Positions 8,804 through 29,178 of a DNA stretch of 35,865 bases are shown piece by piece. The stretch is from Blastocystis sp. subtype 4. Lineage: Eukaryota. The stretch is from contig NW_014569464.1 in assembly GCF_000743755.1 (NCBI RefSeq), forward strand, positions 1-35,865, given 5' to 3'. The notes beneath the pieces were generated by a model. It was not told where the DNA came from, did not search any database, and saw only the letters and a program-made list of their open reading frames with translations. Every line of letters begins with the position of its first letter. The stretch's first letter is position 1. The position numbers and the translations under genes were made by a program.

Positions 8804-8805
8804 TC

Positions 8806-8820
8806 TGTTTGTAACAAAGA
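8806..8820. terminator. Overlapping bidirectional GU-rich polyadenylation elements between DDX24 and the E2 gene
   Basis: TGTTTGTA (+, 8806-8813) overlaps TCTTTGTT (-, 8820-8813). Confidence 0.7.
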
Positions 8821-8824
8821 TGGA

Positions 8825-9443
8825 AGGAGTTCATTTGTAATGACTTCTCTGCACACTGTCTTACCCGCTTTTTGTACTCTTTTATATTTGTAACGTACAA
8901 CTAACGTTCATATTCCACTCAATCAACTACTGAGGCCGCTGCTGCATTCGCTGGACTCTCTGGATTTGGATCATTTAACAGACTCTATCCATCACAACGA
9001 ATCCTTGCAAATAACTTGTATTGATGTTAATACCATACTAACGGTGTTGATTGGAGACCACTTCTCCTTAATAATATCCAAACAAATCATCCCATCAACA
9101 AAAACTACATTTCAACATCTAAAAACAAATACCATTCGGGTGGAAAATGGGAGTGACAAATCGAACAACTGGTGGATTTGAGGGATAATCGTCTGGAAAC
9201 CGCAGCTGCAAAGCAAACATTCCTCCTACTCATGATAATAACCACTGACAACAACCCTCCCAAGGAGAGTCATCGGGGCCGGAAATCATAGCATCCCATA
9301 GAAAGAGGTCCTCCATCTTTGACGGTGATGCACTGATTCCCTAGGCAATGAAGATGTTCGCTTATCCTTACATAGGGCGGATCATTTTGTAGTTCTTCAT
9401 AATCCTTTAATAACCTTATCTGTGCCCGATTCCGCTTATTCAT
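8825..9443 (-). CDS. Ubiquitin-conjugating enzyme E2, Rad6/UBC2-like
   Basis: [23 protein letters not shown]..., [14 protein letters not shown], catalytic [11 protein letters not shown] and DPNPESPAN. The end shown is the predicted poly(A)-made stop; the genomic in-frame TAG is at 8792-8790. Confidence 0.88.
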
Positions 9444-9516
9444 TCTCCTTAACAGAAAAAACTGAAATACTTTTCAACTATATCCTTTCTCCCTTTGATC
9501 AATCGCAAGTGACTAG

Positions 9517-10627
9517 ATGCATGCCGACAGTATTATCAATTCCATTATGTCGTTTTGGAGGATGGATGCAGTTTCTATCTGTGATCTCATTTTGATTATT
9601 GGTTATTTGCTGATTGGATTGCTGTGTATCATAGCCAAAGTAAAGTGAGTTATCCCTCGATCTTCTCACTCCTCTAGAAAATCCAGATCACAGGCCATTT
9701 TTATCGGAACCACATCATTTCTGAACTATACATTGGCCTTTGGAGTTGGTATATTGGTTTTCTTCGTTTGTTATAATAGGTCGTACAATTCATCTTTGTC
9801 TTTGCTATTTTTATGGTTATCGGATCCAAGTGATTGGCGTATTACCAATCTATCGCTATAACGATCATTTCACTGTCCTTGTGGATATGGCATGTAACCT
9901 ACTCTACTTCTTTTCTATGATGATGTTTGTACTCATTTGGTAGTAGCTGGAAGTGTGTATCATGAATAGTCTTCATTCGGTGAACACACATCCATCAGTT
10001 ACTGTAGTCAATGAGAAACTAGATATTTCGGTCAAGAAAATGTGGGTGATTGTGATCTCTGTGATTCTCTGTATTGCAGTTGTTGCATGCTATTTGCTTG
10101 GATTTATAACGAACAGTCGGATTATTTTCCTCTCTTGACTCTAGATGTCTTCATTTTTGCTTCTGCTGGAATCTTTTCGGTTTTGGAAATTATCCTAATT
10201 GTAAAATGGATTCAGTTCTATAAGAGTATTCGAACGGTAATCTTGTAGGATTTGAGAATTCGCTTCATAGTAGAAATACCGTGATTCCATTGAATGTGAA
10301 ACGAAATCAGATTTGTAGCGCGAATCAACGCTGTAGTCTGTATATTGTGAGCTTGGTAGGTCGTATCAGTCTACAGATTCTCCTTTCCTTCAATTATGTT
10401 CTGCATATTGTAACATTCCTGATTCTCTTTCATTTAGTCTTCGTTTGCTCTCACATTGTTGTATTTACTCTTCACAGAAATTACACCGTTGCTTGCAGCT
10501 GTCATTCACCAACTGTCCTCTATTCATACTTCTCAGATGTAAAAGAGTTGTTTCTTGGTTGATGCATAGTTTTGAAGGATACTTCACAAATCTGCTTACA
10601 TCACTTCAAGATGTCCTTTCTGTATAA
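9517..10627 (+). CDS. Multi-pass (about 7-TM) membrane protein, THH1/TOM1-like
   Basis: Spliced hydrophobic segments include LLYFFSMMMFVLI, LYIVSLVGRISLQILL and LTLLYLLFTEITPLLAAVI. One middle junction is unresolved. The gene may continue into the downstream kinase (see findings). Confidence 0.6.
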
Positions 10628-10746
10628 TATTTTTTAGTCTTGACGTTATATCTGTTTGTTGGTATTACGCCATTTCGGCGACTCCAAATTGCGACACCGT
10701 ACCGCATCTATTGGTTTCGTAACGGCTACTTATAATTACTTTTCAG

Positions 10747-11912
10747 AGCTGTTGCCAAAGGAATCAATAAGTACTACCTTTCTCCATGAGGATACGGAGG
10801 ATGAATTTGTATGGCCGGTAGATCCAACTCATTATCGCCTGGAAGGCTTAGTTGGACATGTAGTTTTTTTTGACTACTTTGAGTGATAGGGGTCCTCGGC
10901 TCTAGTGTATAAAGGAATTTGTGTCGACAACAACCAAGTTGTTGCTGTGAAAGTTGTGAAATTGGATGTTCAGTATTCAAACTTGACTTCTCTACAAAAC
11001 GAAGTAATCACAATGAGACTTTGTCATCATCCCAATATCATTCGTTGTTATAGTTGTTTTATCAGTGGTACCTCTTTATGGATTGTTTGTCCGTACATGT
11101 GTAAAGGATCCTTTTTGAGGATTCTCCAGTATTTGAAGTCGACTTCTTTCATTCGAGAGGGAGAAGGATTTGAAGTATATGATTCTGTTCCATGTCATCT
11201 CTAGGAGTCTGTCGTAGCTTATATTATTTCTGAAACTGCTAAGGGATTGCAATATCTGCATTCTTCGGGTCTGATTCATCGGTTTGCACCTTAAATACTT
11301 TTCATCTATAGTGATATTAAAGCGGGGAATATTCTTGTTGATGCAGACGGACATATATGTATTGGTGATTTGGGTATGGTTGTGAAGGAAGGTCACCGCA
11401 ATTCGACCTTGAACCGACTCCATATCTCAGGTACTCCCTGCTACATGGCTCCCGAAGCTATCACACATAAACACTGTCATTGCCAATCTGACATTTGGTC
11501 GTTAGGAATCACTGCTATGGAACTGTACAAGGGAACCCCTCCTCTTGCGCGGTTTGATAATGAGGAGATTCTTCAATACACTGTTCATGAAGAAGCTCCT
11601 TCTTTGAATTCCTATTCAGATGCGTTCCCAAGGGATCCATCTTCTTCGTTCGATGCATGGATTCATGGTGTATTGCGAAAGGATATGAAAGAACGCTATC
11701 CTATTGGACGAGTGTTGACTCATCGTTGGCTGTTGCAAGCAGAAGAAGGTCGTGAAGCATTAGTCAGATTGCTGCAATCCATTCCTGATCTCCCCGTTCT
11801 TGAGAGTGTGGAAGAGTTGAATCCATGGACTGAAGATCCGAATGCATGTATGCAGGACATATCATGGGATTTCAGTTTACCTCCCGTAAAGGCTATTTCA
11901 ACTAGTGATTAA
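10747..11912 (+). CDS. STE20-family (FRAY/OSR1-SPAK-like) Ser/Thr kinase; start codon not found
   Basis: WPVDPTHYRL, VGHGSSALVY, VAVK, IHRDIKAGNIL, GDLG, GTPCYMAPE and DIWSLGITAMELYKG. There is no in-frame ATG upstream of the catalytic domain. Confidence 0.88.
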
Positions 11913-11965
11913 TGCAAATTATGTATGTTTCTAATCATTCTTTGTTTCAATCGATCTTTGAATTC

Positions 11966-12252
11966 ATGGCGAATAATAACAAAGTAGAAGAAGAATCTGT
12001 CCGAGTAAGAGAAAAAAGATTCGATAAGAAACAGGTTCCATCGAAATGGCTTCTTCTGGTGATTGGATTCTTTATTGTACTTGGACCCTTCACTACTCCC
12101 AATGGTCTATGGTTTTGTTGGTGTCTTTCAGCCTCGTAGGGATGAAGTATTACGCTAATCCTAGATTGACATACATTTATATTAATATGTCGCTCAAAGT
12201 AAAACGGTTGGAACAAGAACAAAAAGAAAAGATGGGAAAGAAACAACAGTAA
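11966..12252 (+). CDS. Small hypothetical two-TM protein (~85 aa)
   Basis: ATG at 11966. One 29-nt intron (12136-12164) joins KWLLLVIGFFIVLGP...WFCWCLSAS to LTYIYINMSLKVKRLEQEQKEK. TGCTTGTT follows the stop. Confidence 0.55.
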
Positions 12253-12263
12253 ACCATTGCTTG

Positions 12264-13555
12264 TTAGTTACTCTTTATTCTATTCAAAAAATCATTGAGG
12301 AAGTCTCTCCATTCATCTGGTGTGTAGTACACAACTTCTCGGCAACGCTTCATCAGAATCTCCTCACTATTCGTGAAACTCAGATACAGAACCCACTTTG
12401 CCTCATTGAAGCACTTCTCAGAACGATACACTACAATACCTGTCAACTCAACACAAGCTGGCTAGATATTAGGAGTAGATAGCATACTAACATTCACACA
12501 AAGATCTTCTAACGGTTGTTGATACTTGCGAACAAAGACATAGATATCTCTTCCGTGTCTAGCGTTCATTCATCCATTCAGCATTACTGACAAAAGACAA
12601 CGTCATATGGGTACTGATACTTGTAACATAGGCGAATCAGATCATTAAAGTAGGTACATAGCTCTTTTCGCTTCGTTTCCTTCACTTCGATAGAATCATT
12701 TGCTTGAATGTCCACAGAGAGTTTCACGGTTTGACACATCCAGTCACAAACGTCACTCACTGTTACAGAACCTTTCTAAAATCAAATCCATAGAACAAAG
12801 GCACTTGATAGAGAATGTGACAAGGTGCATATTCTAATGGCAGTCTATTTACCGTGAAATCATCAGAAAGAGGTGGTTGTGGGTTTCCTGCTATAGTAGC
12901 ATAAAAAGATGAAGTATACATCACTTGCAACTAGAATTAACAAATGGGAACCAAAGATACGTGAAAGTGATTTACAGAAGAAAAACCACCCAACGAATTG
13001 AAGAATAAAACGTAGTCATCTCGTTCACTGTTCTCACACATCGTTACAAAATCCTCCGTTAGATCATATTTCCACACCTGATTGTAGCAATTCTCAAGAT
13101 TGGGAATAATGAGATGATGATTGTTACAGATTGGAGAAACTAGTCTTATTTCATTTCATATTTCCTACCATTCAGCAAAATCGTATAGATTGTAGGAACA
13201 TCGATTTCGGATCCATCCACAAAATATACCTTTCCATCCTTCACATAGATCTTTGCTAGTAGCTCTGTCGGATTCACTTTTGTAAAGTTAAAACCTTCAG
13301 AGGAAAACGGTTCATCTACTCTAGGTCTCGTAAAGAATGGTTTTCGCTTCTTCAAAATGACATCCATCATGGAATAATACCACTAACTGCCAGGTAGGAT
13401 GGTATTGGGCGACAAAGTGCTTAGATCCCGGAATCCATTTCATTCTTAACCCTGCCACATCCGATCTGCACAGTCCTTCTGCTTCACTACTGCATTACAT
13501 CTTAGACGGAAACGAAATACCAGCGATCAAACTGGGCCTTGATTGCAGTATCCAT
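12264..13555 (-). CDS. GDP-hexose phosphorylase, VTC2/GDPGP1 family (HIT superfamily)
   Basis: GLCRSDV...IPGSKHFVAQ, EPFSSEGFNFTKV, LLNVSPICNNHHLIIP, FNSLGGFSSVNHFHLQ and ELTGIVV all match VTC2/GDPGP1 blocks. Confidence 0.87.
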
Positions 13556-13596
13556 TCGTTAACAAACAAATACTCAGTTCAAGAGGAATTAGACTA

Positions 13597-15154
13597 TTAA
13601 TAATTGGAACTCATGAGCACTTGAAGAAGATTCTATGCTTAATTTCTCTAATTTAATTCGTACTGTAGCTTTAGGAGTAAGAGGTTTGTTATTGACTACA
13701 CAGTCACAAATGTCTCCCAGACACTCTGGTCCAATAACAATTCCAAGTTCAATCAAGAGATTAAAATCAGAGAGTGTTGTTAGTAACTGCTTTGGATCAT
13801 TCTGGTTCCGTCGCAATGTAACCATCAATTCCTCTACAACTAATCCTTTCCAGCCATTCTTACTCAGAAGTGTATCACGAGTCTCTGCTTTTGATGTCAA
13901 TACAGGGAAATTGTACTTCTTGAAGATCACTGGATATGTCTGAGCTTTAGCCGTCGTTACTGTAAGTTCCACAAGGAAGAACAGAGGTTCAAATCGAGTT
14001 ACTTCTTGGGATCCCAACTTTTTATCATTTCTGATCACAGTGGAGAGAAGTTCCTTATTCTTTCCAATAGTTGTACACTCACAGAATTCTGGATCCTTAG
14101 GTTTGCAGAGGAGTCCATCTCGATACATGCACATACACTGATCACTTAACATGAAGGCCAATGGCTCGATATTCCTCTCAGCATTCCTGCTAATAACAAT
14201 CGATACGAACTTGGAACAGTAGTCGCCTCGTTTACGATAGGCCCACTGAAGAGGAGCGATCAGATCCACATCCCAGGAGGTGAGTGGAGTATCTCGATAA
14301 GGAGAAGTATAGACCGCTCCCAGACACACCAGACCGAGATTCGCCGCTACGCTATTAACAGTTGGCATATTCTCGTCTCGCTCAAGAACAATATGACCAT
14401 TCTCGAAGCGTTGACAAGGTTTGTACAATCCATAGATCAGAGCTATCTCTCGTTGACCACTCGGACCTGTACGAGTCTCGTATCGACCGAATAGCAGCCC
14501 AAGAATTTGCTGCTGTTCTCGACCATAGATCCATTCCTGAATGAAGACATCGAGACATTGCTTATCAACAACTTGTACATTGTCCACATGGCGATATTTC
14601 TATTGATGAAGAACGAATAGAAAGAGTACTTGACGAGCCAGAGTACATGGCTTGGGAGAACAAGCAGTACACAATCCTTGAGGATATGGACGGTGATTAG
14701 GACAGTACCGTTTGACTTTATATGTGGGAAGTGTGGGTGTTGCACAATGAGGACATTTTTGATTCGGTCCATGAGTGCACAGCAACTTTTCTTTATTAAT
14801 GTAATCAGCAAACGAGATATGTTTAGCTCCATCATTTTCCTCTGTCAGAAGACAATTCGTACAACTATGATCTTCAGACAAATAAACAACATACTATTGA
14901 TTTGGACCATGATTACAAAGCATTGGAAGTTCAACCTTCTCCCCTTTCTTTAGCTTTACACAATTCGGACACATTTGCCCCTATAAGTAAAGTCATACTT
15001 AATCTACTACAGGACCATGTTGACACATCCAACGAATCGTTTCGCCATCATCTTCTTTATCCATACAGTGAATACACGTTGTGTTACTTGAGTGATTACA
15101 ACTAGAAACATGAAGCAATACTGTAAAGAAATACAAAGGGGTTCGTTTACCCAT
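13597..15154 (-). CDS. NPL4: NPL4-like p97/Cdc48 cofactor with an expanded zinc-knuckle N-terminus
   Basis: HISFADY, HRPYPQGLCTACSP..TLARQKYRHVDNV, and an MPN-like region (GLLFGRY, YKPCQ, SKFVSIVIS, AFMLSDQC). ATG at 15154; spliced stop TAA at 13599-13597. Confidence 0.88.
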
Positions 15155-15172
15155 CCTAAAAAAAGAATGTCA

Positions 15173-15180
15173 AACAAACA
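15173..15180 (-). terminator. TGTTTGTT polyadenylation element behind Pth
   Basis: Perfect motif 4 nt after an in-frame T at 15185. Confidence 0.8.
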
Positions 15181-15184
15181 GACA

Positions 15185-16037
15185 AAGAATCATCCGTATC
15201 AAAATGAGAAAAGTTAGCATTGGGATGGAGTTGCTTATATTCCACAATACAGTTCTTGTAATTGCAACTACTAGCTGCAAGTGTAACGCCTCGATATAAG
15301 TATACACGCAAACCCTCGCATGCGAAGTGCATAATATAGGGAAGTACATTCAATTGAGTGCAATCCCAGCGCCCAACAACATACCGAGGATCTGCACGCA
15401 TGGGAGGCTCTCCGAGAGGTGCTCCTATGCCAATTCGTAAACGGGGGAACTTTTCCGTGTTCATACACTTGATAATCGATTTGACTCCATTCTGTCCACC
15501 ATCTCCTCCCTAAAAGTCATGGATTCAATCAATTTCTACCTTCGGACTGAATCGAATTTCACCAAAAGGAATACTGATATCGTCATGAACAACAAGAAAC
15601 TCATCCATCAGGTTCTTGGACCCTGGATTCTTCAACCGGAAACCATTTCGCTTTGTATACAACGCAACAGATTGTCCACTATTATTCATATAGGTCGTAG
15701 GGAGTGCCATTGCCAGTTTGATGTGAGGAAATGGAACTCCATTTGTTTTTGTCTTCTCTTTCGCTCTTTCCGAGACGTTGTCAACCAAATCAAGTCCTAA
15801 CAACGATTCTTGATTGAAATCGATCGAATCCTGCAGAAGATAGCATTTTGATCCCTTATTCAATTTCCATTCTTGTTTTTGTCCCGATGAACTCATTTTG
15901 GGAAGATATTCCGAAGCAAATAACCTACATACAGCAAAACCCACATTGTGACGTGTTCGATGAAATTCTGATCCAGTATTGCCTAGTCCGACGATAAGTC
16001 GTCGAACTGAAGGTCCTGCCACCTTCACGGTGCTCAT
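15185..16037 (-). CDS. Bacterial-type peptidyl-tRNA hydrolase (Pth1/PTRH1 family)
   Basis: LIVGLGN...TRHNVGF, PTTYMNNSG, VVHDDI, GGDGGQNGVKSI and FPRLRIGIG. The end shown is the predicted poly(A)-made stop; the genomic TAG is at 15158-15156. Confidence 0.92.
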
Positions 16038-16094
16038 GGAGAAAGAAATGGCAAACAAGTGACTTTCATATTTCAGTTTTAAACAAACCATGCC

Positions 16095-16733
16095 TTAATT
16101 ATTCGTTTTTGACTTCCAGTTTTTACCACAAGCTCGAGCTATCATTCTATCTATCAATCCTTACATTCATGTTGCTACTTATTATATGTCCGAATCTGTG
16201 CTTTTCGAGCCTTTTCGGGATCCACATCACGAGCCACACGTTCTCCTAGAAGAACCGGTGTTTCAGAAATGATTCGATCACGCTCTTCTTTTGATTTATA
16301 TAGAAATGGATTGATACATTCTTCATCTGGAGGTTTTGGTAGACTTCTATACTTCATTTGAAAGAAGCATACTATACGAAGGATCTGAAATATAACCACT
16401 AGACTTACTCAACCGCTCTCGAATGACACCAACATCCAATTCAGGATCTGTGCTTTTCTTAACTGGTTCTGCTAGTTGTTCTTTCTGTTTCTGCCTCTTT
16501 AGTAAAGGTATCTCAATCTCAGCATTCTCGTCATCTTCTTCTGAATTCAAAGAATCCGGTTTGATATTTGATTTTGATCCTTTTCGTATATATACAGTGT
16601 TCTTTTCTTCATCCTCCAAATAAGACCGCTTTGAATTCTGACTCCGGTATATTATGACATTTTGAGATCCATTTAACGGATACTCTGAAGTCGAACGAAT
16701 TGGTTGTCCTGAAGTAGGAAGCACCGCAGACAT
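16095..16733 (-). CDS. Hypothetical charged/hydrophilic protein
   Basis: ORFs 16347-16775 and 16175-16399 can be joined by a short intron. A probable final exon ends in TAA at 16097-16095, followed by GGTTTGTT. No family recognised. Confidence 0.5.
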
Positions 16734-16800
16734 AGACAATCCAGTAAAAAAATACACGAATACCAAATAATCCACAAAATACAGAGTCAGTTGAATTGTT

Positions 16801-18198
16801 ATGTCGAAGGGAAAGAAGAAGAGTCAAGCTTCTAAACCGAAAGATACACCGAATTCTGATGAAAGAAGAACAGAAGAAGACATTCGTAACGATGAGCAAG
16901 AAGTCGCTCATTTTAGGGATGTACAACTAATCAGATTCGTTAAATGTAGATTCAATACTCATTTCTCGATTATGCTTCATTCATGTTACTGGAATTGAGA
17001 CGACGGCAACATGCATATGACATTCTGGAAGATAAATATAAACAGTACATTCCTCAGGATGTTTGGAACGCAAAGCAAATGGAGTTCAAGAATTGCATCT
17101 TAGCCAACGCTCGATTTCTAGCGTAGATTGTTTGGACTGTTTGTAACTGTAGGAACGTGGTGAAAACACATAACTATTATACAGAGATGTTTGGTATTCC
17201 AACTCAACCAAGGGATTATCTCTCAGCCCCTTATCAAATGAGTAAAGTGAAGAGTACACTCCATCAATTGATCCGTGACTGGTCGGATGAAGTGGGGGAT
17301 TCGGAGATTATTCACTCTAGGGTAAAGAAGAACGAGAACTATGTTATACACCTCTTCTCAAGCGTCTTGAACACTATATTCCTCTCGTTCGTAATGAGGA
17401 TGGTTCTATCTCTCCTGAGAATCAGTATCATATTATATTTATTGTTATGACTAGACGCCGTGTTCTTGTCCCTGGAACGGGTCTAAGTCGATTACTCTTG
17501 GAAGTAGTAGAAAGAGGATATGCTGGTCAAGGAAACGAATTTTCGTATCAAATGTTGCTTGTTTCCAACTACATGCTTAATCATGTATCCGAAGCATATA
17601 GTGTTAGTATATGGTTTTTCTATAACTTCTAGATTCCCATCTATCCGTGGACAGATAATCCAAACAATGTCTTTGCTACGGGTGATAACAATCGTTGCAT
17701 TTTGATTCCAGACGTAGTTCCTCGTGTCTGTGTGCACGAAGGAGCTGACTTCTCAATGTGTGCAGGTGAATTCCTTGAGAGCTATTCAGATCAGGAAAAT
17801 GCATGGGATTGTGTGTTAACATGTTTCTTCATCGATACGGCTCCTGTAATCATCGAGTATATTACTGTAATTCACAAAATCCTAAAACCTGGAGGATATT
17901 GGATTAATTTAGGACCTTTGTTGTATCATTGGCAAGTAGGGATAACTAGATGGATTCATAGTAGTCCACAGAGGATATCACAGCAGAAGAAATGGACGAA
18001 CGCTATGGACAGTCACTAGAACTCTCGTTTGAAGAGATCCAAGACATCATGAAGAAAGTTGGATTCAGGATTCTGGAGGTGGAACGATTTTGCTCGCCCT
18101 ATACGGATAATATGTTCAATTGGATGGCTTGAGTGATGTGTAGACGTTCTATGATGACGACATTATTCCGAGGAGTTCTTTTTGTTGCTCAGAAGTGA
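16801..18198 (+). CDS. CARNMT1: Carnosine N-methyltransferase / histidine methyltransferase (N2227 family)
   Basis: [57 protein letters not shown] and [17 protein letters not shown]. Confidence 0.93.
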
Positions 18199-18219
18199 CA
18201 AACATTTTTGTTTGAACAC

Positions 18220-18227
18220 AACAAACA
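18220..18227 (-). terminator. TGTTTGTT polyadenylation element behind TAF11-like
   Basis: Perfect motif 4 nt after an in-frame T at 18232. Confidence 0.8.
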
Positions 18228-18231
18228 GACG

Positions 18232-18870
18232 ATGGAAACAAGTCATGGTTTTCATCGCGCCATTCCCTCGCCGCCTGTCGTAAAACATCTGGAGATATAA
18301 TTTCACTGTCTTTATCTTGATGTTGTTTTGCTAGGGATCATCTCCTTCTTCCATGTATACCTTTCATTATCAAATCTCGAACATATAACTTTGCCATACC
18401 TGCAATTGCTATTGCATCTTTTCGTTGAGGTTTATATTTCATTCCCATCTTCTTTGCACATCGAGCAATGATCTACACTCAATATTTAACTCTATCTGTA
18501 CGGATTCCACTTTTACAGGATGTAATCGAGACGAAAGCAAACATTTCTTCCTTGTATACTCCATTGGTGACAAGGACGTCGATGCTTCCTTTCTAATATT
18601 TAAATCGATTCTATAGTCTACGTACAATTGAAGTAATATTCGATTTTTCTCAATGAATTCATCCTGATCTTGTTCAGTTATAACAGACTCAGGATTAACC
18701 GATTTGGTTTCTCTCATGTCAGTAAATTCTGTTATGGCATTGGATTGCCTTGTAGTTGTTGTAATACCAGAAGTACTCTCCGACTCCGAAACCAGATTAG
18801 GAGACACGGACTCATCATCATCATTTGAATACTGAACTAATCCGAAGAAATCATTGCCATCATCATCCAT
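18232..18870 (-). CDS. TAF11: TFIID subunit 11-like histone-fold protein
   Basis: The spliced C-terminus AIAIAGMAKLYVRDLIMKA...ISPDVLRQAAREW resembles the TAF11 histone fold. The stop is predicted to be made by poly(A) at 18232. Confidence 0.7.
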
Positions 18871-18953
18871 GGTAATCGAATAATAGCAATTCAAGCAAAC
18901 GTGAAACAAACAAACACTAAGAAACGAAGCACAAATAGATTATAAAAAAGTTA

Positions 18954-19896
18954 CTACAGTCTTCGTGCATTCTCCCACAACCTTGTGTGTCTACGAACAT
19001 CCTAATCATTACTCCAAATATCAAGACAAACAGATTTCTTAGCTAAATATTGAAGAAAAGGAAGAAGATGCATCAATTCTTCATCCGATTTGTTACCAAA
19101 GAAAGACTCACAACAAATACCATTTGCTGGCTGAAGAATATAACTATCTCGCAAATTGTCGACCAAAACGACTTTTGATAGATCACGACCCAAAATAGAA
19201 AGATCCTTTACTAGTACTCCGTTAAATAACCGACAATTCTCTCGAAATAGTCTGTATGCAATGCAGCAATGAGGATCAATAAAATCAAGAACACTATTTG
19301 CATACTATGTATGACTCTCAAATCCTTTACTTACACTTTTTGAGCTTGCAGTGAATACGACAATCTCATACATATAGCTTAGTGAATGGAGAAACTCCTG
19401 AACTCCAGGACGAACACATACATAGATATTTGAAACCGTATCATTTAGTTGAAGCGGAATTACAGTATCACAACATGGAGGGGGAGAAAACGAAGAATGA
19501 ACTAAGGTTTCATCAAGATCAAGAACCAAAGTTTTCTTCCCCTTATCACAAGGACGTTGTTTACCGATTGCAAAGCACTCTTTGGAGTCATTCAAATGAG
19601 GACAGGAATGACTCCCCTTCAAACACTTCAATTCACGAAAGTAATTCGGCTACATTTCATATTCATAACACATAGAATACATTTGAATGGTTGTCAGATG
19701 GCAAAGGACAAATGTGAGAAGACCGTATGACAGAGCCAAGAAATGCATTTTGCATGTATTTATGCATGCTCTGATTATATCGGTTCATAAAAACTGGAAA
19801 AAAGCAGTTCTGTGACACTAATACTACAACATCATTAACACACTTTCATAATTTACCGGACATCTCATCATCGCACTTTGGCCTATAAGAGTCCAT
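18954..19896 (-). CDS. CTD small phosphatase (SCP/NIF, HAD family)
   Basis: [17 protein letters not shown] (DxDxT), [17 protein letters not shown] and [13 protein letters not shown]. Confidence 0.93.
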
Positions 19897-19998
19897 TAGA
19901 AAGAAAAACTGAACTTTAGAAAGAAAAGAATGGATAAGCGAATAATGAAACGCCCACTTTTCAACAGTCATTTGACAACTAGTGTTAATCTTGTGTCT

Positions 19999-22133
19999 AT
20001 GGATTTTCTGAACCATCCAAAATATTATCCAAGTGAAAAGGATGAGTATTTTCCACAATCTGAGAGAGTTGTCTTAAATACATTGTTGTTTGGTGATAGA
20101 ATTATTTTACCAGAAGTATGCATACGTATTGGACTATGATCCATAGGTGTTATTGCATCCTACACAAGATGATAGTTCTATTCCTTGTACCTATCTTTTA
20201 CGGCCTGTTCATCCAACAGAGAACAGTAATCCCGTTGTTTGTGGAGTGTTAGAGTATTCAAAGCCAAAGGGAGTAATTGAAGTCTCCAATGATGTTTATT
20301 GAGATGTTGCATTTTAATAGTATAGGTATTAGCAAATCTTGGGATTGAAGAAGGAATGGAAGTGACTGTTGAAGAAATAACTCTTCCTAAGGTATGGACA
20401 TTGGATTTGATTATGATTGTAGGCTTCTTTTCTAACTCTTAGAAGTATGGATGTGATTCAAGGTTCAAATCATTTGGAACGCATGCTGATGAATCGTCTG
20501 ACAGAGCGATATTGTTGTGCCTTTCTTCATGAAAGGATTGAGTTAGAGTCGATTTTGATTGTGATTCTGAAACATAGTTGGGAAGGGAATCACTATACCT
20601 TTTCAGTGGAAGAAATTGAACCAAATTGGGCTTGTTCTCTCGTGGATACTGATATGTCCCTCCAATGGGATTTTAGGTATGAAGAAACTCCTCAGCCATC
20701 CGAAACTGCATTTATACTCACTGCAGAGAGCCCCAATCTCCATTTGTCTACCAAAGTCAATGAAGTTATATTATTGACAGTTCTTCCCTCAAATCACCGT
20801 CAACTCCAAATCAGGGGTCACCATCTCTATTGCGTGGTCTTTCAAGCAATTCCCAAATCTAGTTATGACTATGATGAAGAAACGCCCATTGGACCATATT
20901 TCAATAGTGGAGTGATCGAATGTGATGAAGAATGCACAGTATCACTCTCTGATGAAACACGCTTTCGAATTGAGATTATGGATGGATCGGAAATAGATTT
21001 TCACTTAGGAGAGAAGAAAACCGATCTTTTTCCTTCCGATGGAATGGTTTGTGAGAATTGTGGAAAATCAATTAGTCGATCCGTGTTTCAAGTCCTTTCA
21101 TTTAGTGAACCTGACCCGTAGATCCATTCTATTCAATGCAAACGACGCATCATACGTTGTCCCATCTGTCAGCAGCCATATAATCAACAGAATTCCAATT
21201 ACCATGTTCATTGTCCTCAGTGTAACCAAGTCACTTCAGAACAGCATCTTCCTCTTCATCAATCTCTGTGTCACAACACTCAGTCATGCCATTGTGGGTT
21301 ATCCTTCTCTATTCCATCTCTCTCCCATCACTATCGATTTGAATGTCCCACAAGAACTCTTCATTGTCGCTTTTGTGGTGAGAAACATCGATTTGATGGA
21401 CAAGGAGACATCCGAGTGAGGGGATTTAAGCAAGACCCAGTGGATCGATTCAATGGATTGTCGCTTCATGAGTCCATCTGTGCGAATAAGACGGTGACGT
21501 GTCGATACTGTGGAGAGTATGTGATGTGTCGCTTCCTCAGTGAACACTATCTTACTCATCATCACATCGCTCGTAAAGATGACTTAATCCAATCACCTGT
21601 AGTGAATGATTCACGAAGTGTTCTTTGTGAGGTGTGCGGGTATCGACAGCAATCAGTTACCGATTTCTGTCTCGTAACTATGTCTTGAAAATGTAATGAA
21701 AGAGATGTAATGCGATAATGAATACAACTTCACTGAAAAAGCAGTGCGTCTGCTCCAATACAATGTGTGAAAGGATCTTTGTGGAGGAAGATGGTCTTCA
21801 AGTAGGAATGATTATTGGGTATTCCGGTAGTATGGACTCTGTCCTGAGTGCTACAAAGGAATTGTGAAAGGAAATGGTGATGCGAAACAGTTCGTCAAAT
21901 CTCTAATGGTTCTTTACTTAAATCAGTGGGTGAAGGGCTGTAATAAGAAGAATTGTGGGAATCCATTTTGCAAGTGTTGTGGCCCTCATCCTAAAGAAGT
22001 GGATGCTGCATTTTCTTCCATTTCGTTGAAGGAATCTACCCAAACGGAGCTTCCGAGGGTTCTTCTTGATCTCACCAAGATTTCGGCCTCACAAGTTCAA
22101 TTTTGGGTTTGCAAATCTATGTTCAAGTCATAG
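19999..22133 (+). CDS. UFD1-domain protein with TRAF-type zinc fingers and a C-terminal AZUL-like domain
   Basis: UFD1 (UT3)-like blocks GDRIILP, CGVLEYS and LPKASFLTL. Cys/His repeats include CENCGKSI and HESICANKTVTCRYC. The C-terminus has LYLNQWVKGCNKKNCGNPFC. Confidence 0.8.
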
Positions 22134-22219
22134 CGTCTTTTCAACTGTTTGTTCATTAGGAGTTTTGAAACTGAATTGGGATCCCAAATGCGGTCTCCCA
22201 AAAATACTATTACTTAACG

Positions 22220-23979
22220 ATGTGGAGAGAACTAGCAAATGTATTACTGGCTCTAGCTATCACCGTTCTTTACATTGTATTTTCGGGGACTGCGACTAAG
22301 GAGAGTCTGCTTCACAAGGAGGTTCTTCAGTGGAACTTTCTATTTCATACAGACGATGTTTCTATATACAAACTCGAAAGTGAAAAGTAGGAATTAAGGA
22401 AGTCCGTTAATTGTAGCTTACGAGACCACTCACATCACATTTTGACGAGTTTGGATCCGGTACAGCAGTTCGATATTTCGTTAACTATTAGACTAAGAAT
22501 CCAATTCACTCCGTTCCACAGAAGTCGTTTTTTATTCCTGCAGCAGATCTCTTGTCTCAGCTCGTTCCTACGACTCCTGTTCCAACTATTCTTTCTAGAT
22601 TACCTAGTTTGATTCCACCAAAGTTAGAAGAGCCTACAGTCATCATTCCAGTTAAGGGGAAAGAACCAACTTCCAATTATTTCCGAGTGCCGGCCTATCG
22701 AGTGATTCATGGTCAGTCCTTTGGTTCTTACTATCTTGACGATATATCCAGAGGTGTAGTTACTCCTGAAGTGGTTACCAAGAATTTCTTCTTCTCCATT
22801 CTGTTTATTCCTCTTTCGTCAAGCGAGAAGGATAAACAACAACAGCTCTTCACCCAATTTCTATTCTATATGGATTCTTTGTGTTCAAAGACGAATCAAG
22901 ATGGAGATGTTATCATTCTTACTCCTCATCGTCTATCTGGTTTTGGCAACAATATTCGCTCATTAATGACTGCGTTTTACATTGCAGTTACGACCAATCG
23001 AGGCATTCGTGGTAGTTCTGTTTCTAATCCATAACATATAGTCAATTCTACCCCAAGTATCTACTGGAATATGTTTGTTCCTTTTTCAAATTTCACTGAT
23101 CCATATAGGAAATGGATTGTGAAGATGGAATGGATTCAAACAGAAATGGAGAGACAACGGTTCTTAAGACATCCTATGAGTTATTATTACCGCTATCATG
23201 CATTTAGTCTACGTACATTTTCTGATATGACATCCTCATTCATTAATCCTACTCTCTATCAAAGTGTATTTCAGAGTGATGGTATTATTCCTCCTTTGAA
23301 GGAGAAAGCTTCGGCTATCTATTTGGGACAGATGTTTCGTTCTGCTATGCTACAAGTCCTAATCAATCCAGAGGAAGGTCTCTGTAATCTAATCAACGAT
23401 CATATTGAGAAATTGAAGAAGCGACATATGATTGGAATTCAGATCCGCGTAGGAGGGTCCGAATCCAACTACAAGGAGAGACGGATTCAAGGCTACTATG
23501 CAGTGAACCATTTTTTTAATGAAGTAATTCGCTACATGAAAAAGGAGAAGATTAAACCTCAGGATGTATTCGTGTATATTTCCACAGATTCTGATATTGT
23601 TCTATCTAACATATCGGAGTTATTTAAGAAGATTCGTCCAGATATGGTGTATTCTGTGACTGATTTCCGTATTGGTCATTCTGCGATTGGTAAAACATAT
23701 CACGGAGATGGAGATGCATGGAAGGAATATAGCAGTCGAGCATTGATGGATCTTCTAATTCTCAAGGAAAGTGATTTTCTTGTTTTTTCTCAGGGTAGCA
23801 GTTATGGACAGTTTTCTCATGAGTTACAACAGACTTACAACAATCCAATATCTCCTAAGGAGTATTTGGAAGCAAAGGGATTAAAATGTTCTGTGTATGG
23901 TCATCGAAAGTTTGCTGGAAAAGCGAGGATTATCAAGAAGACTACTTCTCGAATGTTTGTGCCTTTGGAATCTCTTTAA
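22220..23979 (+). CDS. Type II membrane fucosyltransferase-like glycosyltransferase (GT37/GT23/GT11-like motifs)
   Basis: N-terminal signal anchor MWRELANVLLALAITVLYIVF. Motifs SGFGNNIRSL, IGIQIRVG, VYISTDS and ALMDLLILKESDFLVFSQGSSYG. Confidence 0.75.
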
Positions 23980-24067
23980 CCATTTCTTATTCGTTTAGCT
24001 ATCTATTCCATTTGTTTGTTAACACATGGAATGACATTGTCATTTTCTTTTTTCGTTGGAAGGAATC

Positions 24068-24875
24068 ATGGATAAATCCATGAATGAGTATCTCAATAAT
24101 TCCAAATGATGACAATAAGAGTCGAACACTCAATTCACACACTCTGCATGAAAGGGGATCTCGAAAGTGTGATGGAACTCATTGATAACGGAACTGATAT
24201 AAATGTAGGTAACAAAACTGTTAAAATCAGAAGCAGATTCGGGATGATGATCAACGAACTCCCCTTCACTGGGCATCGTCATCGAAAAATAGTGCACTTG
24301 TGGAGTATCTCCTGTCTATTTCGGGGATTCTTGTCAATGTTCAAGATGAAGTAAGTATCAAGTGATTCTATTATTATTAGGCTGGATACACACCCCTTAT
24401 GTGTGCTGTATCTGCAGGAAGGGAAAAGAATGTTGCGTTGTTACTAGGAGCCAATGCCGATGTTAATATGGAAAATGAGAATGGAGAAACTGTTCTCCAT
24501 ATGACCAAGGGTGGTTCTACTCTAACCAAGTGACATGTAGATCGATCTGACATTCTCATTCTCTTTATTGACCGTGTAGCTGATATAAACAAAAAGGTTG
24601 GTTATCGCTATGTTCGTGATATTAAGGATTGTTATGGATTAACAGTTCTCATGAAGTGTGCATCAAGGGGTTGTACTGAGAGTATCCAACTGTTACTGGA
24701 CCGTGGAGCAGACATGTCCATACAGGATGAGAATGGAAATACAGCAGCACATTATGCTGCTTTTGATAATCAGCGTGAGGCCTATGTAATGCTCCTTCAC
24801 AATGGCTACGATGAGTCAACCGTAAACAAGGAATCCAAAACTGCATTAGACTATGTACATTCTGTTGTTTCTTAA
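24068..24875 (+). CDS. PSMD10: Gankyrin-like ankyrin-repeat proteasome assembly chaperone (PSMD10/Nas6)
   Basis: DDDQRTPLHWASS, DEAGYTPLMCAVSAGR, IQDENGNTAAHYA and NKESKTALD follow gankyrin repeat order. The mRNA stop is probably made at 24861. Confidence 0.75.
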
Positions 24876-24885
24876 AACAAACAAA
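24866..24885. terminator. Bidirectional polyadenylation element (gankyrin / RPS12)
   Basis: TGTTTCTT on + and TGTTTGTT on -. The same 20-mer occurs at 29159-29178. Confidence 0.75.
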
Positions 24886-24909
24886 ACGGTGTTCTCAGTA
24901 AGAAATCAC

Positions 24910-25372
24910 TTACTGCTGGCTCTTGACGTACTCAAGAACAACTCCCAGAGCGGGACTGTCCTCACCAAAGTCAGTAATGACAGCGCTAGAGCACTTGACG
25001 ATCTTTCTGGCGTTTCCCTCAGCATCAATCTTGCAGAGTCCACACCACTGACCAAGGGTCTTTCCCTCAGGGATCTTGATCAGAGGAACCTGGCGATCAG
25101 CACAGAGAGCCTCAATCAGACGGGTGTACATAGCCTCATCGCAATCCTCAGCAAGGAAGCAAATCTGGGCAACACCACGGTCCAGAGCCTTCACAGCCAG
25201 ACGGAGACCACGCTGGAGTCCCTCATGGTGAAGAGCGTTCTTCAAAACCTCAGACACAGCGGTCATGATGTCCATTTGGGGAACAACGTTCACGCTACAC
25301 TTTAGCCACATATTCCATCAAGTACGGCTCAGCAACGGGTTCAGTAGCAACAGGAGCAGCTTCCTCAGCCAT
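24910..25372 (-). CDS. RPS12: 40S ribosomal protein S12 (eS12)
   Basis: MDIMTAVSEVLKNALHHEGL...LGQWCGLCKIDAEGNARKIVKCS. Intron at 25325-25295; ATG at 25372. Confidence 0.96.
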
Positions 25373-25521
25373 ATTAATCAATGGTGTCCTTAGAAGAGAA
25401 CAAATAGTGAAGAACGATTGAATGGTTACTAACGAATAGTGGTCTTTTGATTATTATAGAATTAGAATCAACCTCGATTTTTGGAATTCCCTGTATTTGA
25501 CAATCGGAAAGACAAGTCAAC

Positions 25522-28500
25522 ATGGACTCATCATTTCAAGAATTGTGCAAACTATATCTTCTGCAACTAACCAAAGGTTGCAAGAATGATAGTTGTCGCA
25601 ATATGGATTGTGCACGGAATTGTGTTTGTATGTGTTTTGCATAAATGGTAATGCAATAGATAATGATAAAAAACGAGTTACTTTACGAGCTGTGGAAATG
25701 GCGAAGAATGGGACTCTATTAAGCTGTTCTTCTGTAAATCGGGTTTTTAATACTCCTCTGGACAAAATTGAAACTGCTCTTCCTGAAACAGTGTGGGATG
25801 CTGAAACAAGTGGGAAAGTGTTGAAGTAGGATTGATATATATATTATAATTCCAAGGATTCTATCATTATCATTGAAAGATGAGAAGTATAAGAGAGTGA
25901 AGAGTGAATCGACTGTTTTTGAGAGCTTGCTAAAAGATATGCCTCTACTCTCTCTGGTATTTGCAGCTGCAGGGTTCTACTATGATCATGGTTGGATTGT
26001 GAACTAAGGTTCATGGTTAGGATACTTTGTGTTCACTTCCGATGAAAGAACTCGCAAAGTGATTGAGATTCTTCGGAAACATCAGAGTGTAGGAATTCTG
26101 TTCCATTCTTACTCTAGAAAGCAACAGACATGGAATATACATCATTCTCAAATGCATCTAAAGTACTAAAATCAATTCAAATTCATTTTAGTTGTCTTTA
26201 CTACCTAGTTCAATCATTGACAAAGATCGTCTTGTTCTGATGTCCTATGACCCTTTCATGGAACGCTATGGTCGTTGTGTGTTTCCTTCCACTGTAACAG
26301 TGGATGATGTCTTCTCGCTCAGTATTGATGGGGAATTCAGCAAATGTGATTTGTTGATAGCTCTATCATCTGACCTACAAGCCCTCCAGGATATGACAGT
26401 GACTGAAGGAGTGATTCACTGCAATTCTCCATTTGTTCTGATTCATATTCAGTTATCAGACACACCTCGATTCATTTTTGATTTTGGTTCGAATCTCTCT
26501 GTGGACGAACCATCATATCAAAGTACACAATTCCCTATTAACACAGAGTCCATTACACACAATGTTCACATTTTACACAGTAATTCTGAACTTAATCTCA
26601 TTCTCAATGTATCCTTGATCACACATCATCATAGCTAGAATCAATGTTACGTATGCTGTTCGGATTCAATCCTCTCTTCCATTCCATCCTCTGTCTTTCT
26701 TTCCATTCTCTCATATTCGAATGGTAATCACAAATTCAAAGCAACACTTGACTCCATTTCATTCCATCACTCCATTACTTCTCAACTCCTACAGCTTACA
26801 GAACCTGATGCCGATCCTTCTGATGAAATTGTGAGACTTCTATCGATCACTCACTCCCAGCATCCTTCTCTCCGAGATTCACCTATTGATAGTTTGATTG
26901 AACTCTGCCATTATGAACCGATCGAACCTGCTACTGCTCCTCTTCGGAGACGATATCCTGATTCTACTCGCATGGTAAGGATCATGAAAGATAATCACTG
27001 AACAGAGAGTTCTCCACTGTCATGACATGCGTGGCGGATATCACGAAGATTCTGCTATTTACGTAAATATTCCTGTTTTCTGGCATTGTAGGGAACTCAT
27101 TCTCCTTCATATATGTTCGAATATTGGTCCGTGATTGATCTGTTCGTCTATTTCTCTCATCATTTCATCACAATTCCAATATCCTTCCGATTTCTGAAAT
27201 CCATTTTTATCCTTGATTTCATCCAGCAAGTTGGATCGAAGCAGGTCATCAAAATGGTGTTCCTGTCCTGGGTACCATCCTTCTGGAAGGTCACTCAGAA
27301 GAGTTATTGAAGCAATTTCTCTGTGGACCTGATGCTGACGAACGGCGCGCTCCAATGTATTCAAAATGATTTTTTGTCATATTGTAGGTTTGATTCATTC
27401 TTTACTGAACGTTTGGTGAACATCTGTGATCATGCTCATTTCGATGGATACTTGGTGAATATTGAAATTCCATATATCCCCCCGAATTTACTTCGAATGC
27501 TACCTTCGTTTCTGAAGAAACTACGAGATGGACTTCATGAGTTGAATCCAGATGCTCAAGTTATCTGGTATGATAGTATTGATTCCCGTGGTTATCTCAA
27601 CTATCAAAACAAAGTGTCACGGGAGAATCAGGAATGGTTCCGATGTGTTGATGGTTTGTTTCTCAATTATTGGTGGACTCCCGAAGACCTCAATTCTTCT
27701 GTCTTATTAGCCAAATCAAGGTTGTTGTTCTAAGGAGTTTCAAACATAGAGCAAGAGATGTCTATGTGGGAGTTGATGTCTGGGGCAGAAATACACGAAG
27801 TGGAGGAGGGTGGAATGTACCTCAGGATCTGGCCCTGATTGAATCAAAAGGTTTATCGTGTGCATTGTTCGCAGCTGGATGGATCTTCGAACATGAATGT
27901 AATGGACAAATCAATGAAGTTTATTTCCAAAAAGAAAGACAATTTTGGCATCATACTATTACAGAAGTTACGATGGATGGATCAATGAAACTCCTTACTG
28001 ATCCCTCATGTGTAGCATTCTTTGTATCATAAATATCCTATGATTATTCGTAGTCCAAACAACATGACATTGGTTATTCATTACCCTTGTATTCAAACTT
28101 CAATTCTGTAAGAGATTGATTCATTCTCATATGTTCAGATGCTCTCTAAAATAGAGTATGTGAAGGGTATTCCTCACAGCCTCCATTTCTATTCACCTCG
28201 CTTCACCAGCACACAACCTACACTCGATATCTCATTTACAGGAGGAGCTGAACTTATGGCTGAGTTCAATTCTACGGATGGATTTGATGGAGATGGATGT
28301 CTCCTGATTCAATCACACTTGGGAGGTCGAGTCAAGAGTCAGGAATTACTCTTGTGGAGGTGCAACGACATTATGATCACCGAACCCATTATCATTGAAA
28401 CGGTTATGAAACGTTCATCAAAACACAAATCTCATTGGTCGTGGGTTCTTCGTGGAAATGTGGAAACCGTAGAACCCTTGAAAAAACAGAAATCAGAATT

Positions 28501-29168
28501 CATTCGGAGATTGGTGTTGGATGAATCGGTCAGAAATCACACAGAAGAATCAATTCTGATGATTGGCCCTAGTTTTCACACTCATTGTGGTCAGGAATGG
28601 GAGCGATTCTACTGGATCGTATATCCAGTAGTTCATGATTATCATGTCACATGTATTACTTCCATTTCATTGGCTTGTGAGTGTGAGACGTACGAAGAAG
28701 ATACACTGCGATTGGGTCTGTTTTATCTCAATAAGGTGGATTGGCATATGAGTCTACTTCAGGCGGATTGTAGGAATTTCAGAAATATCTAATATTTTAG
28801 ACAAACCGCAAAATGTCCGGATTCAAGTCTTATCGAACCCAACAAAGAGTAACAAGCGTGAAGAACTACAATGTGTTCACGGAGTGATTCGCTGGAATTG
28901 TGGAAAGAGTGATTTGGTTGTATCAGATGGTATTATTCCCGCAGTGAACTATTATCGTGTGTATGTGAATGGTCGACTGATTGGAAAAACAAAGTCAATG
29001 AGTTACTGTTTGAAGAGAAGTGAGTAAGTAATGACTGACTAATATTTAGAGAAAACAGGCAAGATTCGTTCATATGTGGTTCTTATTCAACCGGTTACTA
29101 TCTATGGAACATCAATTCCACTTCAACAATGTACTCCTTTTACTCTTTCTTTCTTTCATGTTTCTTAA
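25522..29168 (+). CDS. GH85 endo-beta-N-acetylglucosaminidase (ENGase) with an N-terminal AZUL domain and long linker
   Basis: GH85 motifs VLHCHDMRGGY, IDLFVYFSHH, FDGYLVNIE (catalytic N-x-E), VIWYDS, FLNYWW and GVDVWGR. The frame is open from ATG 25522 using introns 25628-25659, 25826-25856, 25991-26020, 26089-26117, 26163-26191, 26609-26638 and 26975-27005. Confidence 0.8.
27179..27222 (+). other. U12-type (minor spliceosome) intron with AT-AT termini, 44 nt
   Basis: 5' ATATCCTT, branch site TCCTTGAT (A at 27216), 3' AT. Removal restores the conserved TIP|PASW...HQNGVPVLGT. No GT occurs in the gap. Confidence 0.8.
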
Positions 29169-29178
29169 AACAAACAAA
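29159..29178. terminator. Bidirectional polyadenylation element (ENGase / secreted protein)
   Basis: TGTTTCTTAAAACAAACAAA, identical to 24866-24885. Confidence 0.75.

What the first reader, a model, noticed from the sequence alone, without database searches (positions are those of the whole stretch)
27179..27222. 44-nt U12-type intron with non-canonical AT-AT ends inside the ENGase catalytic region
Seen: the conserved GH85 motif TIPP-x-x-W is split by 44 nt that contain no GT. The gap starts ATATCCTT (U12 5' consensus), carries TCCTTGAT (U12 branch consensus) and ends AT, 6 nt after the branch A. Using the nearby CAG at 27224-27226 would frameshift. Known: U12 introns tolerate non-AC 3' dinucleotides, and Blastocystis retains minor introns. 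Inference: this is a very short minor intron that gene callers would miss, and it could limit ENGase expression.
Basis: partly seen in the sequence, partly recalled or inferred. Interest (0 to 1): 0.75.

Follow-up and report, generated by a model that had tools for sequence, protein, structure and literature searches.

The report
Real AT-AT minor intron, Blastocystis ST4
A 44-base stretch with unusual AT...AT ends is cut exactly out of the messenger RNA of a sugar-trimming enzyme gene in the gut protist Blastocystis, likely by the rare "minor" splicing machinery; such introns are a known rare class, and the published gene model for this subtype gets this one wrong.

Summary
Confirmed. An RNA-derived contig joins 27178 to 27223 with no ambiguity, skipping 44 nt with AT..AT ends. 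T at 27222 is real: three metagenome assemblies and the published Blastocystis ST4 intron table carry it. The exons meet at adjacent GH85 profile positions 39/40. The public ST4 model covers the site with a 139-nt GT-AG intron that swallows an 87-nt exon, and none of the 336 ATATCC-starting introns in that table is from ST4, so the miss is systematic. The intron is ordinary for Blastocystis. Among 150 of the 336 ST1 ATATCC introns that I read, 5 end AT, 52 AG, 3 AA and 90 AC, and 135 end 6-7 nt after the branch A. AT-AT minor introns are also known in human and mouse. Likely mechanism: the 3' site is the first A-N at a fixed 6-7 nt from the branch, so AT at +6 wins over CAG at +10. No evidence bears on limited ENGase expression. 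More interesting is lineage-wide: about half the human branch-to-3' spacing, 40% non-AC ends, and no long GTATCCTT introns in ST1. The scan's earlier notes did not cover this DNA.

The parts
27179..27222 (+). 44-nt phase-0 AT-AT intron, U12-type by its signals; intron 10 of 16, after codon 462
   Evidence: RNA contig joint; phases
27179..27186 (+). U12-type 5' splice site ATATCCTT
   Evidence: same start as the ST1 class
27210..27217 (+). U12-type branch motif TCCTTGAT; inferred branch A at 27216, 38th base of the intron, 6 nt before the 3' end
   Evidence: compared with ST1 rows
27221..27222 (+). 3' splice site AT, the first A-N dinucleotide after the branch A
   Evidence: T confirmed
27224..27226 (+). 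CAG at +10 from the branch A; not used in the RNA contig, used by the public model; frameshifting if paired with the AT donor
27092..27178 (+). 87-nt upstream exon (GH85 profile 14-39, ending T-I-P); lost from the public ST4 model
27223..27356 (+). 134-nt downstream exon (GH85 profile 40-77, starting P-A-S-W)
27388..27720 (+). Exon with the GH85 N-x-E motif (residues 526-533 region) and WYD, downstream of the intron
25522..29168 (+). Host gene: 17 exons, 1049 aa, N-terminal AZUL domain, weak PUB-like hit, GH85 ENGase domain; 15 GT-AG introns of 29-32 nt plus this intron
27088..27226 (+). 139-nt GT-AG 'intron' of the public ST4 model (KNB44626_8), contradicted by the RNA contig
   Evidence: 356 vs 440 bits

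Best explanation
The 44 nt at 27179-27222 are an AT-AT intron that is cut exactly out of the mRNA of a Blastocystis ST4 GH85 ENGase gene, likely by the minor (U12) spliceosome, which is predicted to place the 3' cut at the first A-N dinucleotide 6-7 nt after the branch A. Shown: exact excision, genomic AT ends, an open 1049-aa frame, and the published mis-model. Inferred: U11/U6atac read ATATCCTT, U12 pairs with TCCTTGAT and bulges A27216, and spacing rather than the last base fixes the 3' site, so AT at +6 is used and CAG at +10 is passed over. Also inferred: the site is an AT-AC intron whose last base drifted from C to T in ST4, because out-of-frame gene calls from related Blastocystis loci force C (P0001, P0005) or AC (P0002, P0007) at the matching place.
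For: Junction in an RNA contig with no ambiguity and no mismatches; the same run shows poly(A) tails beside TGTTTGTT motifs, so it is mRNA. T in 3 of 4 loci and in the published ST4 row. 44-nt model scores 440 bits on a 120-homologue profile against 433 (41 nt), 429 (47 nt) and 356 (public model). In 150 of 336 ST1 ATATCC introns read by eye: ends AC 90, AG 52, AT 5, AA 3; bases after the branch A: 5 in 1, 6 in 85, 7 in 50, 8 in 10, 9 in 3, unclear in 1, none 10 or more; shortest 37 nt. The gene's other 15 introns are GT-AG and 29-32 nt, so this one falls in the separate longer class. ST1 and ST7 have minor-spliceosome components (PMC5608401 section Introns). Back-translation of P0001/5 and P0002/7.
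Against: No test of spliceosome dependence and no ST4 U11/U12 sequence (no genome held; no Rfam hit in the window). The RNA evidence is one contig from one run, whose RNA status is a guess on record; 2 of the 4 runs laid nothing and the other gave only short unspliced pieces that miss the intron end. Contigs drop rare forms, and a frameshifted AT-AG product could be made and degraded. TCCTTGAT exactly was not among the 150 ST1 rows, though its variants CCTTGAC and CCTTCAT were. Orthologue ends rest on back-translation and assume the same exon start; their DNA and 5' ends were not seen, and their inferred spacing is 9 nt. PMC11347168 (passage) reports not finding minor components in some stramenopile clades.
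Confidence: 0.9

Rival explanations
1. Ordinary AT-AC intron with an assembly error (C read as T) at 27222.
For: The RNA junction would be identical; relatives appear to end in AC; AC is the commonest end, 90 of 150 in ST1.
Against: T in L001, L002, L004, of which L001 and L004 differ from the window elsewhere, and in the published ST4 row.
Confidence: 0.01
2. Excised by the major (U2) spliceosome as a non-canonical AT-start intron, or a member of a mobile AT...AT intron family.
For: U2-type AT-AC introns exist (PMC1557818 passages); major introns of this gene also show a TNA motif about 7-8 nt before their ends in most cases; earlier scan notes describe non-U12 AT...AT families in another protist (unchecked).
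Against: 5' site is ATATCCTT, not a U1-type site; a U12-type branch motif is present; 44 nt is outside the 29-32 nt size of the other 15 introns; no target-site duplication at the joint (both = 0); single copy of the pattern in the window.
Confidence: 0.05
3. The joint is a reverse-transcription or assembly artefact and the real mRNA follows the public 139-nt GT-AG model or retains the intron.
For: One contig only; the public model keeps an open 1037-aa frame.
Against: No microhomology at the joint; the 7-nt repeat nearby (27163-27169 and 27217-27223) would delete 54 nt, not 44; the contig contains the exon that the public model removes; public model loses the FSHH and TIPP motifs and 84 bits; retention stops at 27308.
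Confidence: 0.02
4. Add-on to the best explanation: the AT end splices slowly and throttles ENGase output, retained transcripts being non-productive.
For: Retention stops translation at 505 aa, before the N-x-E motif at about 529-533; non-canonical termini often splice less well and slow U12 splicing has been proposed as rate-limiting (PMC3584512); T is shared by all ST4 copies seen.
Against: The spliced form assembled as a single contig and no retained-intron contig was laid (contigs cannot show absence); relatives seem to have AC, so AT is not conserved; ST1 uses AT and AA ends in 8 of 150 introns.
Confidence: 0.12

Closest known systems
U12-type introns of Blastocystis ST1 (Gentekaki et al. 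2017, PMC5608401, section Introns and S11 Data; Larue and Roy 2023, PMC10639083, passages)
   Same: ATATCC start, CTT[C/A/G]A[C/T] branch motif, 6-7 nt from branch A to the end, 37-53 nt typical length; AT-AT ends in 5 of 150 rows read (OAO17781_10, OAO17623_9, OAO17300_5, OAO15713_7, OAO13599_6).
   Different: This one is in ST4, whose sheet in that table has no ATATCC-starting intron; the papers' text that I saw speaks of AT-AC and does not mention AT-AT in Blastocystis or the short spacing.
Non-canonical AT-AT (A-type, AT-AN) minor introns of animals (Sheth et al. 2006, PMC1557818 Tables 2-3; de Wolf et al. 2021, PMC8280824 passages; PMC10639083 section 30)
   Same: Same ends; 6 human and 6 mouse cases listed, with AT-AC/AT-AT switching between orthologues (ERCC5, Gpaa1, Slc9a8), as inferred here; second commonest non-canonical end in animals.
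   Different: Optimal branch-to-3' distance given as 11-13 nt (PMC3584512 section 4) against 6 here; AT-AG said to be disfavoured there but is 52 of 150 in ST1.
Cytosolic GH85 endo-beta-N-acetylglucosaminidases (Pfam PF03644; Endo-A structures 3fha, 3fhq, 2vtf)
   Same: GH85 domain across four exons, N-x-E and WYD motifs aligned.
   Different: N-terminal AZUL domain, which none of the 120 listed homologues carries among its precomputed Pfam domains.

Membership tests
U12-type (minor) intron | 5' splice site RTATCCTT | tested here: met
   ATATCCTT at 27179-27186
U12-type (minor) intron | Conserved branch motif close to the 3' end, no separate polypyrimidine tract | tested here: met
   TCCTTGAT at 27210-27217, 6 nt from branch A to end; a variant of the ST1 motifs
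U12-type (minor) intron | Terminal dinucleotides AT-AN or GT-AN | tested here: met
   AT..AT in RNA joint and in DNA
U12-type (minor) intron | Precisely removed from mRNA | tested here: met
   One contig of one run, unambiguous joint
U12-type (minor) intron | Pairing with this organism's U11, U12 and U6atac; presence of these RNAs in ST4 | not testable with these tools
   No genome held; none in the window; reported for ST1 and ST7 only
U12-type (minor) intron | Splicing depends on the minor spliceosome; lariat at the predicted A | not testable with these tools
   Needs knock-down or lariat sequencing
Animal-type U12 geometry | Branch site 11-13 nt from the 3' splice site | tested here: not met
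   6 nt here; 5-9 nt in 149 of 150 ST1 rows; figure for animals from PMC3584512, whose counting origin I did not see
Blastocystis ST1-like minor intron class | Length of 37 nt or more and 5-9 nt branch-to-end spacing | tested here: met
   44 nt, 6 nt
U2-type AT-start intron | U1-type 5' site apart from position +1, and the local major-intron size of about 30 nt | tested here: not met
   ATATCCTT start; 44 nt against 29-32 nt for 15 of 15 other introns
GH85 ENGase | PF03644 above cut-off with N-x-E motif | tested here: met
   Four exons each above the cut-off; alignment to Endo-A; that N-x-E is catalytic is recalled, activity untested

The most novel reading that the evidence does not exclude
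Blastocystis runs a compact, almost purely A-type minor spliceosome that sets the 3' splice site by a 6-7 nt ruler from the branch A, about half the human spacing, and nearly ignores the last base (40% non-AC ends in the ST1 rows read; all 25 ST1 GTATCCTT introns are major-sized). This intron is a natural test of it, because AT at +6 is chosen over a CAG at +10 that lies nearer the human optimum, and a whole set of such introns is missing from the published ST4 intron table.
Probability: 0.55. Interest if true: 0.5.

Novelty: new member of a known kind. Interest (0 to 1): 0.3.

Why it matters
Practically, it shows that the published ST4 intron table has no ATATCC-starting intron among about 24,000, and that here the miss deleted conserved catalytic-domain sequence from the protein model; if ST4 resembles ST1, a few hundred genes may be affected (inference). 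Mechanistically, it is a clean case for how the minor spliceosome picks its 3' site in a genome of 30-nt introns: spacing over sequence. The single intron is not a new kind of thing.

Tried and rejected
No whole genome held, so no ST4 snRNA pairing or genome-wide count. No run is on record as RNA; X1 was a guess, supported by splicing and poly(A) tails. X3 and X4 laid nothing; X2 does not cover 27222. The second laying (7000-26999) listed no other AT-start joint, but 4 joints and 34 indels were not shown. ST1 orthologue's intron rows not found with 12 guessed short motifs; P0008 may be another subtype. No annotated Blastocystis ENGase came up in three protein searches. A degenerate junction pattern found nothing in prokaryote genomes, as expected. 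The representative-protein search and the Atlas gave no answer. Alternative 41-nt and 47-nt in-frame ends rejected. L003 is chimeric just downstream of the intron and uninformative. No paper held both 'ENGASE' and 'minor intron', so whether the position is ancient is open. PMC1370826 (Dietrich 2005) is not held; nothing is taken from it. The statement that the short spacing and AT-AT ends of Blastocystis are not discussed in print rests on searches and on passages of PMC5608401, PMC10639083, PMC11347168, PMC10690189 and PMC2846911; figures (the logos in Fig 1 of PMC5608401 may show it), most supplements and subscription journals were not seen, nor newer ST4 annotations, which may model the intron correctly.

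Full report
Observation. The 44 nt at 27179-27222 start ATATCCTT, carry TCCTTGAT at 27210-27217, end AT, and contain neither GT nor AG. The A at 27216 is followed by 6 bases; the A-N dinucleotides after it end at +6 (AT), +10 (AG), +13 (AA) and +14 (AG). The flanking exons match Pfam GH85 positions 14-39 and 40-77, with no gap. Of 120 homologues, 106 matched my motif pattern and all 106 have the spacing that the 44-nt removal gives. A loose version of the motif pair turns up in 20 of 100 simulated windows, so sequence alone would not prove it.

RNA evidence. Four runs were listed, none on record as RNA. One contig of run X1 (3092 nt) lies on the gene with no mismatches and skips 27179-27222 exactly, ends AT..AT, no ambiguity, 134 letters on the shorter side. 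It also lacks nine other introns in that stretch and implies a tenth; a second laying shows two more joints upstream and 148 missing letters that equal five introns. Poly(A) tails at 18921 and 24888 sit beside TGTTTGTT motifs; that this motif marks Blastocystis 3' ends is recalled. X3 and X4 laid nothing and X2 gave short unspliced pieces that miss the intron end. With all 16 introns removed the frame is open from 25522 to 29168, 1049 aa; three upstream intron places were taken from the published rows. Retention or use of CAG 27226 stops at 27308, before the N-x-E motif.

Is the T real? The RNA cannot tell AT from AC. Of four metagenome loci, L001, L002 and L004 carry the identical intron; L002 may be the window's source, L001 and L004 differ from it elsewhere, and L003 does not reach the site. 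The intron table of Gentekaki et al. 2017 (PMC5608401, supplementary file 32) has the same bases in ST4 row KNB44626_8. The window is therefore Blastocystis ST4 and the T is genomic.

The public model. That row is a 139-nt GT-AG intron, window 27088-27226, which removes the 87-nt exon and uses the CAG. The model also lacks the introns at 26831-26860 and 27063-27091. It loses the FSHH and TIPP motifs and scores 356 bits against 440 for the RNA-supported form, 433 and 429 for in-frame 41- and 47-nt alternatives. All 336 rows that start ATATCC lie in the ST1 sheet, since the last hit is still ST1; the ST4 sheet is held whole, the ST7 sheet is cut. The paper says RNA-seq correction was available for ST1 only.

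How unusual is it? I read 150 of the 336 ST1 rows (places 1-60, 151-180, 231-260, 307-336) and counted by eye. Ends: AC 90, AG 52, AT 5, AA 3. Bases after the branch A: 5 (1), 6 (85), 7 (50), 8 (10), 9 (3), unclear (1). The shortest is 37 nt. Larue and Roy give a mean just under 42 nt and median 39 (PMC10639083, passages and section 30) and call AT-AT the second commonest non-canonical end in animals. Sheth et al. list 6 human and 6 mouse AT-AT cases (PMC1557818, passages and tables). So length, spacing and ends all fall inside the known range for Blastocystis. All 25 ST1 introns that start GTATCCTT are 29-33 nt, which suggests G-type minor introns are rare or absent; I did not test other GT-start variants.

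Relatives. Three metagenomic gene calls matched the catalytic exon at 72, 72 and 55%. P0001/P0005 and P0002/P0007 read through the matching intron end out of frame. Back-translation forces a last base C in the first pair and last bases AC in the second, excludes a T-I-P directly upstream, and fits 29 and 33 of 36 downstream exon residues. This is inference from protein letters; it suggests an AT-AC intron at the same site with a C-to-T change in ST4.

Mechanism. Shown: exact excision, AT ends, open frame. Inferred from established U12 biology (PMC3584512, section 4 and passages): U11/U6atac read the 5' site and U12 the branch motif. Inferred from the ST1 counts: the 3' site is the first A-N 6-7 nt after the branch. 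No ST1 row read has 10 or more, which explains why CAG at +10 is not used, although decay of a frameshifted product could hide its use. The review gives 11-13 nt as optimal and calls AT-AG disfavoured; both differ in Blastocystis. A-type introns show higher basal retention in human cells and depend on CENATAC (PMC8280824, abstract and passages), a lead for a throttle, but nothing here measures retention.

Comparison and verdict. It works like, and meets every sequence test of, an A-type U12 intron; spliceosome dependence and ST4 snRNAs could not be tested. It is a new member of a known kind. Other papers seen: PMC10690189 (passages, section Gene annotation), PMC11347168 (one passage), PMC2846911 (passages); none of what I saw discusses the short spacing. 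Earlier scan notes had nothing on this DNA; notes on other genomes supplied the non-U12 rival. Interest 0.3.

Noticed in passing
window 25522-26974 (+): The ENGase frame begins with an AZUL zinc-binding domain (E 3.9e-7, above cut-off) and a weak PUB hit (E 0.006, below cut-off), in the same RNA contig and open frame. Several homologues (P0069, P0072-P0074, P0091) carry PUB, none of 120 lists AZUL. It may tie the enzyme to proteasome/p97 glycoprotein turnover (inference).
   Followed up: partly
window 26609-26638 (+): A 30-nt GT-AG intron in the same gene starts GTATCCTT, like a U12 donor, but has major-intron size and no separate U12 branch motif, as do all 25 such ST1 rows. Probably U2-type; a converted minor intron is not excluded.
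   Followed up: partly
PMC5608401 supplementary file 32: AT-AG makes up 52 of 150 ST1 ATATCC introns read, although the subtype is called disfavoured in a review; no ATATCC intron is listed for ST4.
   Followed up: partly
window 26831-26860 and 27063-27091 (+): Two ordinary GT-AG introns removed in the RNA contig are absent from the public model KNB44626.
   Followed up: yes
window 24910-25380 (-): Very high contig depth beside the gene (bin 25009-25675) belongs to a 40S ribosomal protein S12 gene, head to head with the ENGase gene; no credible RNA family there.
   Followed up: yes
L004, matching window about 27021: 5-nt deletion at a short tandem repeat in a coding exon, plus 4 substitutions near 27510-27555; a frameshift if real, possibly an assembly error.
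   Followed up: no
L003 1-858: Unrelated sequence joined to the ENGase exon at window 27238; looks like a chimeric contig.
   Followed up: partly
L001, matching window about 29275 and 29796: Two small deletions of 8 and 7 nt relative to the window, downstream of the ENGase gene.
   Followed up: no
window 29160-29176: The ENGase stop codon (ending 29168) abuts a minus-strand TGTTTGTT motif at 29176, so the two convergent transcripts probably overlap at their 3' ends.
   Followed up: no
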